Positions 25,213-52,445 of a DNA stretch of 64,000 bases are shown here, in pieces. Each line of letters opens with the position of its first letter. The first letter of the stretch is position 1. This DNA comes from Hormiphora californensis (lineage: Eukaryota > Animalia > Ctenophora). The stretch lies in contig CM035352.1 of NCBI GenBank assembly GCA_020137815.1, positions 8,742,001 to 8,806,000 of the forward strand, given 5' to 3'. Below the pieces are notes generated by a model that was given only the letters and a program-made list of their open reading frames with translations, was not told the origin of the DNA and made no database searches. Position numbers and translations under genes: made by a program.

Positions 25213-28200
25213 TCACACAACCGGTGTTCGGGCTCTGTTCCTGAGAGAGGATTGGAGGGGTGTCAGAGAAAGGGCGTCCCAAGGAGGCGTCTCAATAAAC
25301 TTCAAAAGGTGACTTCAAAAGAGATGACTTCAAAAGATGACTTCAAAAGGTGACTCACTGTGAGTTTGAGGGTGGAGGGTGGTCCATGAGGGACATGGGT
25401 GTCCTGTCCCCTCGTCTCGCTGGACTCTGTCTGTATTGTCCGGGTGGAGGTTGCTGGTGAGGTGTCCTGGAGCCCCCACCATTATATCCAGGTGTCCTAG
25501 ATCCCCCAGGCGTCCTGTGACCGGGCGTCCGCCCTCCTGGAGTCATCCCACTGGGCGTCCTGTATCCGGGTGTCCGGGACCCAGGTGGCATTCCACCTCC
25601 GGGTGTCCTAGACCCAGGTGTCATGCCACTAGGGGTCCTAGACCCAGGTGGAGGGATGCCGGGTGTTCTGGATCCGGGTGGAGGGTACATACTCCCACCG
25701 GGTGTCCTACCCCCAGGTGTCCTGCCCCCAGGCGTCCTGGACCCCTGGTAACCGGGTGTCCGGGACCCTTGATAACCCGGGGTTCTTGTCCCTGGGTCGT
25801 ATCGCTGTGAGGGTGTTCTGTGTCCCTGATCGTAAGGTGTCCGCTGTCCACTGTCGTGGGGTGTCCGGTGCCCGGCAGAGGGGGGAGGAGCATTGTAGGG
25901 TGTTCGAGTGCCTGGAGTGCGGTGTCCTGGGGTGGCAGTAGCCGTCCTGTAGGCAGCTGCTGGTGGAGGCTTGTGGTGGGCGGAGGTCCGGCTGACACCG
26001 CTGTAAACTGTTCCAACCTCACTTTGTGCTGCACCGGACTGAAAATAATAAACGGTGTTAAAATGAGGACAGATATACAATTAGGAAACAATAGAAATAA
26101 ATACAGGAAATAATTTGGATTCTGGTTTTCTCACCCTGGGTGTCTGGAACGGTTCGGTAAAGTCCGTGAAGTCTGCGGTGTAATCTGTAACGGCTGATTT
26201 CCCTCCCACAGTACTGGCAGCCTTGGCGGCTGCGTGTCGTGTTGGGGGAGCCTCACCATAATGTTTCTGGAGGGGTGAATTAGAGGTTAGACATGGGGTT
26301 ACATAGGGAGTTACACAGAGAGTTACACAGAGAGTTACACAGGGAGTTACACAAAGAGTTACAATGTAACTTACACAGGGGGTTACACAGGGAGTTACAC
26401 AGAGAGTTACAAAGGGAGTTACACAGAGAGTTACACAGAGAGTTACACAGAGAGTTACACAGAGAGTTACACAGGGAGTTACAATGTAACTTACACAGGG
26501 GGTTACACAGGGAGTTACACAGAGAGTTACAATGTAACTTACACAGGGGGTTACACAGAGAGTTACACAGAGAGTTACACAGGGGGTTACACAGAGAGTT
26601 ACACAGGGGGTTACACAGGGGGTTACACAGGGAGTTACACAGAGAGTTACACAGAGAGTTACAATGTAACTTACACAGGGGGTTACACAGGGAGTTACAC
26701 AGGGAGTTACACAGAGAGTTACATAGGGGGTTGTGAAGGATGGATATCATCTTCTCAGACCACTGTGTAATATCTGTACCATATTCATTCTGGAGAGATT
26801 CAGATATAATTACTTACCTTGAACCATTCAATGAGGGATGGGAAGGATCCGTGTATTTTACCCCTGAATTTGAATCCTGCATGGGACACTCCGATATACT
26901 CGTGTTTGGCGTTCTTACTTGGCATATAGAATAACTTGAACCTGCAGTTAAAATATTGGGAGGGGAGTTAGTTGGAAATACTGGCTAGGAGACAACAGGA
27001 ATGAATAAAACTATGAACACACACCCTCTGTACAAAAGATATGGGACACACACATGACACACGGGCAGATCAATTATCCAAAACCATGAATTTACCTGCC
27101 GGGTTTGTCAGTAGAAGATGTGATATAATATGGAATTCTATTGGGGGTCAGTGCTTTGTCATTCCCCAACAGTTTCTGCATTGTCTCGTCAGATGCGACA
27201 CCCTTATAGTACTTGAACTTGAGGATGTCTCTCGCGTTCTTCGCCTGATGGCAGAGGACATGATTAGCTTGGTTACGAAGTCACCCCTTTTATTACATAC
27301 TCCGTGAGCAATAATAACAGAGGGGTAATTTCATTACCAAATGATTAGCAGGGCTAGGATAGGAGTGTTTCAAGCTCAAAATTGCAAGATATATATCCAG
27401 ATTTTAAAAATGTGCGACATCCCATCTCTCAAACTACCCTAAAATGTCATACCATGGGTTCCACAAATCGGGCTATAATTTCATCCAGATCTTCGAATTC
27501 CTCATCCTGAATCCTGAGTTTCCTGCCTAATGAAAACTGGTTGTCCTTCTCTTCTTCAATAATTTCCTCGTGAGCTAGGATGTTGTTCTGCTGATCAACC
27601 TGGGAGAAGACACGTTACCCCCGACTAACAATTATACCACAACTTAGATAACTGACATTTTAACACACATCAAACGAATTCTGTGGATAAATATACCACA
27701 AATTCTGCGAATAAACATAACACGAAATAGCGGATACAAAGATATTGAAATGCCTCCCTGTACTTGATCTACGAAACCCTCACAGATCGCGCTCTGAAAT
27801 AAAATGCGGTTTGTAATACCTTCCAGGTTAGAGTGAGGAATTGTGTTCCCTTCCTCGATGGTCGAATAATACACGATCCCTGTTGCTCTGACTCCAGGAA
27901 CTTCTCACATTGTGCGAAGGTTATATTCTTGAAGTTCGGGTGGACGATAACTCTGTTTATATACTCTGAAACAGGGCCACCAGATTATATACATATATTC
28001 TTCAGAGACACTTTTCACCTCCTGGTCGAAATTGTTCCATTTTCCATACACGGGTAGAAACTTACGTTTGTTTTTTAACTTTTTGCTTTTCTTTGCTTCC
28101 TTTTCTTTCTTTATTTTCTCGGCAGCTTCCGTATCGTAGAAGACATCCTTTTCCAGCGAGGAGCCCGAGTTGAGGTCAGATGTCTTGCACGATAGATCTA

Positions 28201-31200
28201 CTGTATATTTGTCGTAGAGAATTCTTGTCACCTTGGCAACTATCTGTTGTTGTATCTGCAAACACAGGGGTCAGAACTAACATGAACAATCAAATAACAG
28301 GGTTTGATTTATTGCAAGGAACATTTAGTACGGTCACTGAGTATCCACAAAGGGCCGGTCAATCAAGCTACCTTAATTCTCTCCTCAGGATTGGCCACTT
28401 TGCTGTCACTGATGTTTTTAGTTGCAATAAACCCTGATACCCCGTTATCCAATCTGACCCTTACACCAACCGCCTGCCCGGGGCAACTACCTGATAAAAC
28501 ACTTTGTTAGAATTACAGGGGTTCACGCCCATGGCAACAGCTCACATCAAAAGGATTGGCATGGAAAACACATACCGCTTGTATCAAAATGATTCCAGAT
28601 TTCGCTCAATTCGGGGAAATTATCTCTTAGACACAGGGGGCACTGCCACATGCCCGTTTCTTCGTTTCGTTTTGGCTGAATGTCAGGCTCATCTCCTTTT
28701 GGTTTTCGTCGTGCTATCGCATACACTGTACACTGTACCACCAGACCAACCTTGAAGTTCTAAAAGAAATTAGGAATTTAGGAACCAGAGATAAATGTTC
28801 GGCCCCAGACGTATTACTAGAATACTATAGTCTCGGCTAAACACAACTGGCGTATGGAAAATAGCAAACAATTTCAGCACGAGGGCGCTGCGTAACGCGC
28901 TCAGGGGACTGAGCCGCGCCCTTCTACTCGTAGACGGAGTCAACAAAACTTCTTAGACAGATTTTAACTGTCCCACTATGCGGCTAGGCCTTCAAAAACG
29001 GACATAGCAACAGGGAGAGTTTGTTACTTTAACTAAGAGAACAACGAACAGCACCGTACCTCTGAACACTCATTAGACAGTAGATAGAATCTCTCCTCGT
29101 CAGTAAGTGGCTGATAAGGAGTTCTCTTATCTGTGAATCTGTGAATTAATTCATCCCTAATATCATACAGAGTTATCCGCTTATCCGGGAAACCTTGCCT
29201 CTCCAACTCGACTGCAAATGCAATCAAATCTAGATCTTTCAGCTTTTCTGGATCCTCTAGAATATCTTCCAGAGCTCTCTGTTTCACGTTACTGTCTTCA
29301 TCGTCATCATTATAGTCGAGGGCATCAATTGCCATCTTTTGGGCCCAGACATATGTTTCGGGATGGATACGGGTTGAATCCAACAGTTCTGTGTTCTCAT
29401 TCAGTCTGTAGTTGGGAGGGATCAGATTGTGGTTAACAGTGGGTTTAACATAAATAATAACTGTTGAAAATCAATTTCAATACATTGAAATCAATGTCTC
29501 AGTTTTAGGTTTCTTGGTTTTTGTTGTTCGACTGATGTGAGTGGGATGGCGGTCGTGGGCGCAGTGCTGAACATAATTCCTTTCATTACAGCGCGCGTTT
29601 GGCGCGCTCCAAAACCACACTTACGAGTCTTCTCTGGAGTGGTCTATCTTGATGAAACCGGTGCAGTTCAGAAAAACACAACCACCAATATGGAATACTG
29701 TTACCAAGCCCGCCCGGGATTCCAACGGGTCATGAGAGTGTTTCATCAGCTGAAGGGGTGGAGGATGTTAGAAGAATAGCCGAGAGTTCCGCGGCGTTCA
29801 GAAGGGTAGTCGACGGACGACGAGGGCGGGGGGGGGGGGGGGGTTCATGTTCGTATCTTTGTTAAAAACAAGTGGTTCCAGGGTCATATTACCTTGAGTA
29901 GGGCATCCGCTTTACGGGGCCCAAATCCACACACAAACTGAACTATTCCACTGTAATGGTAGTGATCCACGGCAAAATTTAGATCAACCCCAACTTCATT
30001 AACTTTATCTATAAATTCTTCATAGAGGGCCTGCCGCAGTTTATCTTTGGGCACAAATTTCTGAGGGAGGAAAAACGAAATAATCAATAATGAATAATGA
30101 ATCTGATGACACATCTCCATCCGGTTTGAAGAGAGAGAGCTAGAGACAAGGTATCATGAGTGCTATAATTGCAAAACCCAACTTACCGCATTGTGGCCCC
30201 ACGGAACAGATAGAATGTCGTCAGTATAGTTGCACAGTTGGGCCAGTTCAGTAAGGGGGTCCCGGAGTCGCCGAGCTATTGATACAGCTACACGCTGCTC
30301 CCCACAGTAGGAGGGGAACTCAGACTAAAGGGGGGTTGGGTTGTTACTTAAACCTTTTAGATGGGAAATCAGACTAAGGGGGATTGAGATGTTACTAGGG
30401 ATTTAAACCAAGGGATGTGTTAGTCATTGCACAACCGAACACACATCACGAACTGAATTACCTGAGCTCTGGAGGATTCCTTGTAAATCATAGCCACAGT
30501 AGGATCAACAAGCTCAATGGCAATGGGCTTCATTTGGTGCTGTTGTTCGAGTGCAGTAACAATGTCCTGAATCTCTCGCATGTATATCATAGCCCTGTTG
30601 AGGGAAGTGAGAAATAGTCGGAGGGGACTGGTGGCGGATTCAGAAACGATTTACCAGAGCCACACAGAGCCACACAAAGTGAAAAGTCTAAACTGTGAAT
30701 AACTCGTACCTGCCAGAACAGTTCAGGGCGATAACGTGTGGCCGGTTTTCCAGCAAGAAATCTTTCAACTTGGCCATGTCTTCAAGTTTACCTTTCCCCC
30801 ACTCCTTAGCCGTTTTTGCATTGTATCTGGAAAAGATTATTCGATTTTAGGGAAAGAGTGTTAGGGATGTGAGGCTTGGATAACATAGTATGGCACCATT
30901 TGAACAACCAATCTGTAATACTAAATCTACACAAACCGGTAGTAGGTAAGGCAGATGGTATCCTCAACCTCCCCCTCCCCATTTATCAGCACCCCGTGTC
31001 CTGGTCTGTCTTGTTCACTGTCAAACACAACCAACCCCAATACTCTCAAACCTGGTAATAGAGAGGGGGAGAGATAGAGATAGATATGTAGAGACAGAGA
31101 GAGAGAGAGAGAGAGAGAGAGAGAGAGAGAGAGAGAGAGAGAGAGAGAGAGAGAGAGAGAGAGAGAGAGAGAATTACCTTTGATTACCTTTGACAAGGTT

Positions 31201-52069: not shown

Positions 52070-52085
52070 GCGCGGGATTTTCAAA
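52070..52085. promoter_or_regulatory. E2F/CHR-like promoter motif upstream of TTC5
   Basis: GCGCGGGATTTTCAAA plus further CGCG motifs at ~52118-52170 in an otherwise AT-rich spacer. Confidence 0.45.
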
Positions 52086-52445
52086 ACGACAAAATTTCTG
52101 AAAATCAAGTTCTTTACTCGCGCGCAGCGCGTCTTTTACTCGCATCGTAGGTTTTGTTTTTACGCGCGTTCCAACAAACCAAAAATAATTGTCGTATTGA
52201 CTTTCTCTGTGAGCAGGTAGGAGGACATTTTTTGCTTCGGTTTTTTAATACCAATATTAGTGTGCAAAATAAAACAAACATTCTCTCAAAAACACGATAT
52301 GATTCAATTTTACAACTTCAAAACAGGTTTTTCTTTCGAGATTCAAACCCTTGTCTTCCCAATAACATCAGTAATATTCAAACAAAAACAATTCAACCCT
52401 AATCAATCTAAATTAAGTCATATTTGACGTCCCATTCATATTTCC

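What the first reader, a model, noticed from the sequence alone, without database searches (positions are those of the whole stretch)
25213..52170. Candidate ten-gene operon resolved by SL trans-splicing
Seen: TTC5, SMPDL-A, SMPDL-B, HtrA, unknown, NDUFA3-like, ICE2-like, GFER, TMBIM-like and Spt6 are all on the minus strand. Stop-to-ATG spacers are about 330, 310, 560, 210, 155, 230, 115, 135 and 800 nt. Almost every ATG has a pyrimidine tract and AG just upstream, with little room for an upstream exon: TTGTAG|gtaaATG, CCTTCAG|ccgATG, TTTAG|19 nt|ATG, TTATTAG|ccATG, TTGTAG|cgccATG, CCTTTTTTAG|ATG, CTTTCTAG|gcagcATG. The clearest promoter-like CGCG/E2F motif lies at the head, before TTC5. Known: SL trans-splicing resolves operons in nematodes and tunicates, where operons are enriched in mitochondrial and transcription genes, and SL trans-splicing occurs in ctenophores. 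Inference: one polycistronic unit of ~27 kb combining mitochondrial genes with two elongation factors.
Basis: partly seen in the sequence, partly recalled or inferred. Interest (0 to 1): 0.85.

Follow-up and report, generated by a model that had tools for sequence, protein, structure and literature searches.

The report
Comb-jelly gene cluster, likely operon
Ten unrelated comb-jelly genes lie head to tail on one DNA strand, RNA data show the animal's spliced leader joined to one of them and to the gene just upstream, and the most tightly packed ones are likely read as one long RNA that is then cut into separate messages, though a single ten-gene transcript is untested.

Summary
The cluster is real: ten minus-strand genes with stop-to-ATG spacers of 332, 308, 556, 207, 156, 229, 115, 130 and 798 nt. 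SL trans-splicing is shown directly. RNA contigs carry a non-genomic leader, identical to the 3' end of the published Hormiphora californensis leader, at the predicted AG 44194 (1 of 10 genes) and at 53758, the tetraspanin upstream of the proposed head; TTC5 (51983) is only inferred. An AG next to the ATG does not mark operons here: 89 of 117 leader-bearing contigs have an ATG within 20 nt. For an operon speak the tight spacing, no usable donor in 6 of 9 spacers, and a CpG/CGCG island only before TTC5. Against relying on that island, the SL-bearing tetraspanin has none, and a second CGCG cluster lies inside an inverted-repeat element. No polycistronic RNA was shown. Best reading: a likely operon in the six-gene core HtrA to TMBIM-like, possibly hybrid with internal promoters (0.55); a strict single 27-kb unit about 0.2. 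The NDUFA3 and TMBIM names are unconfirmed. The scan noted similar layouts in other genomes, none found under 'ctenophore'.

The parts
52446..53758 (-). Tetraspanin gene upstream of the cluster; SL acceptor AG at 53758, ATG 53744; 3' UTR reaches at least 52397
   Evidence: Leader loose end at 53759 in X1 and three spliced joints; Pfam Tetraspanin below cut-off, E 1e-6
52071..52170 (.). CpG/CGCG island, candidate promoter of TTC5, followed by an 84-nt U-rich stretch (49% T), a candidate outron
   Evidence: CpG o/e 2.29, second highest 200-nt window of the 64 kb; 6 CGCG. Promoter function inferred
50749..51983 (-). TTC5, single exon, ATG 51978; probable SL acceptor 51983; 3' UTR to at least 50581
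   Evidence: Pfam TTC5_OB; X1 contig ends at 51984 with 19 undisplayed letters; X1 and X2 3' contig ends at 50586 and 50581
48968..50448 (-). Metallophosphoesterase A (SMPDL-like), single exon; candidate acceptor 50448, in-frame ATG 50416
   Evidence: Pfam Metallophos; frames; acceptor score 11.1, tied for best in its spacer
47256..48663 (-). Metallophosphoesterase B, likely tandem paralogue; candidate acceptor 48663, ATG 48659
   Evidence: Pfam Metallophos E 0.003; acceptor rank 1 of 9
45303..46719 (-). HtrA-type protease (trypsin-like + PDZ), one intron, frameshifts in this sequence; candidate acceptor 46719, ATG 46699
   Evidence: Pfam Trypsin_2, PDZ_2; frames; acceptor rank 1 of 30
44348..45100 (-). 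Unknown 154-aa gene, three exons; weak candidate acceptor 45100 (alternatives 45103, 45111), ATG 45095
   Evidence: Both introns seen as RNA joints; model; no Pfam or PDB family for the exons tested
43739..44194 (-).
   Evidence: 19-nt leader loose end at 44195 in X2, intron joint in X1 and X2; one 64% homologue, P0001
40750..43514 (-). ICE2/NARG2-like, single exon; candidate acceptor 43514, ATG 43509
   Evidence: Pfam NARG2_C E 5e-17; acceptor rank 1 of 7
40164..40635 (-). GFER (Erv1/Alr), one frameshift near the 3' end in this sequence; candidate acceptor 40635 directly before the ATG
   Evidence: Pfam Evr1_Alr; frame change against the 88% homologue P0002
38617..40039 (-).
   Evidence: Second intron seen as RNA joint, X2 3' contig; no Pfam family above cut-off
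25213..37883 (-). Spt6, 33 introns modelled; candidate acceptors 37883, 37870, 37808; ATG 37818 or 37806
   Evidence: Pfam SPT6_acidic; exon model (last donor set by hand); X3 contig 37761-37895
24780..24979 (.). 200-nt element with 16-nt terminal inverted repeats (MITE-like) holding the window's second CGCG cluster; not part of the unit, a caution for the promoter argument

Best explanation
The genes of this ctenophore cluster receive the ctenophore spliced leader (seen at one of the ten, likely at most others), and the tightly packed core from HtrA to the TMBIM-like gene is likely transcribed as a shared precursor RNA that would be cut into single-gene messages by 3' end formation and leader splicing. 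Transcription likely starts at the CpG island before TTC5 and runs into the core, but the two long spacers (before HtrA and before Spt6) may hold extra promoters, so a hybrid operon is more likely than a strict single 27-kb unit. Shown: layout, leader at 44194 and 53758. Inferred: leader at the other acceptors, read-through, promoter positions.
For: Non-genomic leader at 44194, in register with the AG and identical to the last 21 nt of the H. californensis leader (no genomic copy in the window). Five consecutive spacers of 115-229 nt, below the 250-bp operon criterion used in PMC12460157. Transcript gaps: at most 133 nt from TTC5 to the next AG, at most 174 nt from the small gene to the ICE2 AG. 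Stop-to-AG is 114 and about 124 nt around GFER, while 3' UTRs of 50 leader-bearing contigs have a median of at least 202 nt, 9 of 50 under 100 (30 of the first 80 loci dropped as cut or without a complete ORF), so UTR plus promoter plus outron hardly fit without overlap. No donor of 5 bits or more allowing an 80-nt intron in 6 of 9 spacers, whereas 39 of 42 true donors reach 5. CpG o/e within 250 nt upstream is 1.78 for TTC5 and 0.39-0.89 for the other nine. TGTTTT occurs in 9 of 9 spacers (1 of 300 shuffles). The Hydra RFC140-flp operon has the same anatomy and was proven (PMC3273482).
Against: SL addition is general in these animals, and 89 of 117 leader-bearing contigs have an ATG within 20 nt, so neither SL nor AG-ATG marks a downstream cistron. 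The tetraspanin has the same leader and no CpG island (o/e 0.57): either non-CGCG promoters exist or the unit starts further upstream. The window's other CGCG cluster lies inside an inverted-repeat element, so such clusters need not be promoters. TGTTTT is also among the commonest hexamers at the 3' ends of leader-bearing contigs. The 556- and 798-nt spacers contain donor-like sites and room for promoters. The short spacers also force unusually short 3' UTRs under the operon model. The leader is directly seen at 1 of 10 genes, in one contig of one run.
Confidence: 0.55

Rival explanations
1. One strict ten-gene, 27-kb polycistronic unit driven only by the promoter before TTC5.
For: The only CpG/CGCG island between 25 and 54 kb lies before TTC5; all nine internal spacers lack one; Spt6's upstream 250 nt have o/e 0.41.
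Against: Spacers of 556 and 798 nt (at least 550 nt left after the known TMBIM-like 3' UTR); the SL-bearing tetraspanin also lacks an island; internal promoters are common in long nematode operons (recalled); the longest chaetognath operon has nine genes (PMC12460157).
Confidence: 0.2
2. Each gene has its own compact promoter, partly overlapping the upstream gene's 3' end, and loses a short outron by SL trans-splicing; the cluster is dense but monocistronic.
For: At least 56% of long reads carry the leader in H. californensis (PMC8527503); short SL-ATG distance is the rule; the tetraspanin is leader-spliced without a CGCG island; two X3 contigs are cis-spliced yet keep 12-25 nt upstream of the acceptors at 44194 and 37870/37883, as an outron would (a polycistronic precursor would too; both are under the tool's 31-letter bridging rule).
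Against: 114-154 nt between stop and AG in three spacers against a median 3' UTR of about 200 nt; no promoter-like CpG signal in any of nine spacers; at least 12 genes in a row on one strand.
Confidence: 0.22
3. The AGs are ordinary 3' splice sites of short 5'-UTR introns, with no trans-splicing.
For: Donor-like sites exist in the spacers before HtrA and Spt6.
Against: Refuted for 44194 and 53758 by the leader; no usable donor in 6 of 9 spacers; shortest of 42 modelled introns is 80 nt.
Confidence: 0.03

Closest known systems
Ctenophore SL trans-splicing (Hormiphora californensis, PMC8527503, passages read; Derelle 2010, not held, seen only as cited)
   Same: The leader remnant equals the last 21 nt of the published leader and joins at AG just before the ATG.
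   Different: That paper's main text has no occurrence of 'operon' or 'polycistron'; its supplements could not be read.
Hydra RFC140-flp operon (PMC3273482, passages and Discussion read)
   Same: Non-bilaterian, unrelated genes, spacer under about 400 nt with T-rich stretch, pyrimidine tract and trans-splice AG; general-purpose leader.
   Different: Two genes and proven by reporter tests; here six to ten genes and no functional test.
Chaetognath operons (Paraspadella gotoi, PMC12460157, passages read)
   Same: Defined as genes under 250 bp apart with at least one SL gene, no operon-specific leader; the six-gene core here meets that rule even on stop-to-ATG distance.
   Different: Genome-wide set with ATAC support; longest has nine genes; four of nine spacers here exceed 250 nt from stop to ATG.
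Nematode SL2 operons and tunicate single-SL operons (PMC7986045, passages read; spacing and hybrid operons recalled)
   Same: Co-oriented housekeeping genes, about 100-nt gaps, U-rich spacers.
   Different: No second leader type seen: the same 3' leader end is on the tetraspanin and on an internal gene; no AATAAA in any of 11 spacers.
'Operon-like' clusters reported in the Pleurobrachia bachei genome paper (Moroz et al. 2014; recalled only, paper not held)
   Same: From recall, several hundred operon-like clusters of up to nine genes and SL-bearing genes were listed.
   Different: Could not be checked; if the recall is right the idea of ctenophore operons is already in print as a layout-based claim, and this cluster may be in its supplements.

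Membership tests
SL trans-spliced genes (ctenophore leader) | Non-genomic leader joined at an unpaired AG | tested here: met
   44194 (X2) and 53758 (X1); 1 of 10 cluster genes directly
SL-resolved operon | Co-oriented genes under about 250 bp apart | tested here: met
   5 of 9 spacers (six consecutive genes) from stop to ATG; TTC5 to SMPDL-A transcript gap at most 133 nt; 308, 556 and 798 nt not met on stop-to-ATG
SL-resolved operon | Leader on downstream genes | tested here: inconclusive
   Seen on 1 of 9 downstream genes; the Spt6 5' contig shows no leader and keeps upstream sequence
SL-resolved operon | Polycistronic precursor across the spacers | tested here: inconclusive
   Only shallow contigs available; overhangs of 12-25 nt upstream of two acceptors, under the 31-letter rule
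SL-resolved operon | One promoter at the head, none in the spacers | not testable with these tools
   Sequence proxy only: CpG island before TTC5 alone; proxy weakened (tetraspanin; MITE-like element)
SL-resolved operon | U-rich element between 3' end and acceptor | tested here: inconclusive
   TGTTTT in 9 of 9 spacers but also typical of 3' ends of leader-bearing contigs
Nematode SL2-type operon | A separate leader reserved for downstream genes | tested here: inconclusive
   Same 3' leader end at the tetraspanin and at an internal gene; only 18-19 nt seen, and the tetraspanin's own position in a unit is unknown
SL-resolved operon | Conserved linkage in related species | not testable with these tools

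The most novel reading that the evidence does not exclude
A ten-gene, 27-kb polycistronic unit from a single promoter in a ctenophore: a concrete, testable operon in a phylum for which a 2021 methods paper lists operons as not reported, longer than the nine-gene maximum given for chaetognaths, and a sign that operons arose with SL trans-splicing in the earliest-branching animal lineages.
Probability: 0.2. Interest if true: 0.7.

Novelty: new member of a known kind. Interest (0 to 1): 0.45.

Why it matters
SL trans-splicing is known in ctenophores, but PMC7986045 (2021, passage read) states that operons and polycistronic mRNAs had not been reported there, and ten searches of the held library (listings only, except the papers named as read) showed no paper demonstrating one; a recalled layout-based claim in the 2014 Pleurobrachia paper could not be checked. 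This locus gives exact acceptors, one leader-confirmed internal gene and a candidate head promoter, so the question can be settled with a few RT-PCRs or existing long-read and chromatin data. A proven operon would affect gene annotation and promoter mapping in ctenophores and give a tool for two-gene transgenes, as in Hydra.

Tried and rejected
No whole genome is held, so spacing could not be compared genome-wide. RNA: runs X1-X3 (two studies; X3 only guessed to be RNA, though it holds spliced joints) are shallow contigs; X4 gave only diverged partial matches and was dropped. No listed contig covers the acceptors of SMPDL-A, SMPDL-B, HtrA, the unknown gene, ICE2, GFER or TMBIM-like, and none listed bridges a spacer; the piece tables were cut (63 and 26 rows hidden), and missing cover is no evidence. 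Contig depth was not used to rank genes. The TTC5 loose end stayed hidden in both calls. Synteny: homologue searches gave one relative for the small gene, none for ICE2, seven for GFER, all without accessions; the GFER locus scan found nothing. None of the 120 leader-bearing loci matches a cluster gene. Naming the small gene, the unknown gene and TMBIM-like by Pfam and PDB failed; the Atlas and the representative search gave no result, so these names stay open. Rfam: nothing above gathering score in 24000-55500. I first took the CGCG cluster after Spt6 as the next unit's promoter, bracketing the ten genes; rejected because it lies between 16-nt terminal inverted repeats. The intron-trained acceptor matrix scores the two leader-confirmed AGs poorly (-0.5 and 2.6; that script stopped on an N after printing these tables), so it was not used as proof. 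A strict E2F pattern does not match the head island.
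Full report
Observation. The ten genes are present on the minus strand as described. Pfam supports TTC5, two metallophosphoesterases (one below cut-off), an HtrA-type protease, ICE2/NARG2, GFER and Spt6. Stop-to-ATG spacers are 332, 308, 556, 207, 156, 229, 115, 130 and 798 nt. HtrA, GFER and TMBIM-like carry frameshifts in this sequence; for GFER an 88% identical homologue is intact across the site, so assembly errors are likely. 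The same-strand run extends beyond the ten: a tetraspanin ends 467 nt before the TTC5 ATG, a large multi-exon gene lies above it, and a BTB/ion-channel-like gene (weak Pfam hits) starts about 2.8 kb after Spt6.

Acceptors. A YAG with a pyrimidine-rich tract lies within 20 nt of the in-frame ATG in 7 of 10 genes, against 16% of 1024 ATGs on that strand (threshold set after seeing the data). With a matrix from 42 modelled introns the predicted AG is the best in its spacer for 6 of 10 genes. A donor of 5 bits or more that would allow an intron of at least 80 nt (the shortest modelled) is missing in 6 of 9 internal spacers; the one in the TTC5 spacer lies inside TTC5's own 3' UTR; the two long spacers have several. 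Of 42 true donors 39 reach 5 bits in leave-one-out scoring.

RNA evidence. Three public runs from two studies hold long pieces with no or few differences from the window. In X2 a contig of the small gene ends at 44195, the A of the predicted AG, and continues with 19 letters not in the genome; in X1 a tetraspanin contig does the same at 53759. With the AG, the X2 letters equal the last 21 nt of the Hormiphora californensis spliced leader printed in PMC8527503 (passages read); the X1 letters match for 18 nt and then run into adapter. The window holds no copy of the leader. The organism is therefore likely a pleurobrachiid ctenophore (inference) and SL trans-splicing is shown at 1 of the 10 cluster genes and at the gene upstream. 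A TTC5 contig stops at 51984, in the same register, with 19 letters left that the tool did not display: probable, not shown. Two X3 contigs are cis-spliced at the first intron but keep 20 nt upstream of AG 44194 and 12-25 nt upstream of the Spt6 candidates; this fits unprocessed precursors of either an outron or a polycistronic RNA and is too short to count as bridging.

Is the signature specific for operons? No. Leaving out three that look genomic, 89 of 117 have an ATG within 20 nt of the leader, median 11; many begin with familiar housekeeping proteins (names by my recall of the printed N-termini). PMC8527503 reports the leader on at least 56% of long reads. So most ctenophore genes start with AG near ATG, whether or not they are downstream cistrons.

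What does speak for shared transcription is space and promoter signal. Five consecutive spacers are 115-229 nt, under the 250-bp rule used for chaetognath operons (PMC12460157). Contig 3' ends leave at most 133 nt between TTC5 RNA and the next AG and at most 174 nt before the ICE2 AG. In 50 of the first 80 leader loci with a complete ORF the 3' UTR is at least 202 nt at the median, 9 of 50 under 100 nt, while stop-to-AG is 114, about 124 and about 154 nt in three spacers. CpG o/e in the 250 nt upstream of the acceptor is 1.78 for TTC5 (6 CGCG) and 0.39-0.89 for the other nine. All nine spacers contain TGTTTT (1 of 300 shuffles), but this word is also common at 3' ends of the leader contigs. 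No spacer has AATAAA.

Limits of the promoter argument. The tetraspanin is leader-spliced and has no island (o/e 0.57), so either promoters without CGCG exist or the tetraspanin is itself a downstream cistron. The window's second CGCG cluster (24822-24870), which shares an 8-mer with the head island, sits between 16-nt terminal inverted repeats, so such clusters can come with mobile elements; the head island shows no such repeats. In M. leidyi a different GC-rich motif marks only part of promoters (PMC12221973, passages read). The spacers before HtrA (556 nt) and Spt6 (798 nt, at least 550 nt beyond the known 3' UTR) have room for their own promoters.

Mechanism. Most likely (0.55): polymerase starts at the island before TTC5 and, after each poly(A) cleavage, the downstream RNA is recapped by leader splicing at the next AG; the six-gene core behaves as an operon, and extra starts may exist in the long spacers. 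Strict single unit 0.2; separate compact promoters with short outrons 0.22; plain cis-splicing 0.03. Shown: layout, leader at two AGs. Inferred: everything about read-through and promoters.

Comparison and novelty. The anatomy matches the proven Hydra RFC140-flp operon (PMC3273482) and single-leader operons of chaetognaths and tunicates. PMC7986045 lists ctenophores among groups with SL but without reported operons; my ten library searches found no demonstration. From recall only, the 2014 Pleurobrachia genome paper listed operon-like clusters; it is not held and its supplements, like those of PMC8527503, may bear on novelty. The scan's own notes hold similar candidates in other genomes, none found under 'ctenophore' and none on this DNA. 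Verdict: a new member of a known kind, with direct SL evidence and a plausible but unproven operon; interest 0.45.

Noticed in passing
L044 122-1589, L060, L064 (also L110, upstream flank only): Genomic-looking contigs in which a nearly complete leader, with differing upstream flanks and no GT donor after it, lies 145-162 nt before a 413-429 aa ORF; the L044 ORF has a weak zinc-knuckle hit (E 0.06) and looks like a LINE ORF1. Suggests leader-capped retrotransposon RNA inserted whole, which could account for part of the 718 genomic leader copies in PMC8527503; leader-bearing TE transcripts are reported in Hydra (PMC12220107, passage read).
   Followed up: partly
window 52446-53758 (-): The tetraspanin upstream of the proposed head is SL trans-spliced at 53758 and has no CpG island; it lies about 1.15 kb behind a large multi-exon gene whose C-terminus recalls androglobin (from memory, no Pfam hit).
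   Followed up: partly
P0002, P0007, P0009, P0011, P0019, P0024: GFER homologues lie on contigs of 1.6-5.9 kb, longer than the 596 nt between the GFER and TMBIM-like acceptors here, and P0007/P0019 read through sequence upstream of the usual start. Could be multi-gene transcript contigs or plain genomic pieces; not checkable.
   Followed up: no
window 31052-32667 (-): Spt6's longest intron holds a 326-aa open frame between CT-microsatellites, probably a transposon ORF; a relative lies in L021 (tblastx E 2e-10).
   Followed up: no
window 45172-45220: A 45-49 nt piece of the HtrA-unknown spacer occurs in X2 and X3 contigs with other flanks, so it is likely a dispersed-repeat remnant.
   Followed up: partly
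window 60470-61462 (-): A single-exon 7TM receptor ORF (Pfam 7tm_1) lies on the same strand just above the visible exons of the large gene, possibly nested in one of its introns.
   Followed up: no
window 25358-26039 (-): The Spt6 C-terminus is a long Arg-Thr-Pro repeat that scores as the Spt5 CTD repeat family (E 5e-7).
   Followed up: no
window 50416-50448 and 46699-46719 (-): SMPDL-A and HtrA have short out-of-frame ATGs between the candidate acceptor and the in-frame start.
   Followed up: no
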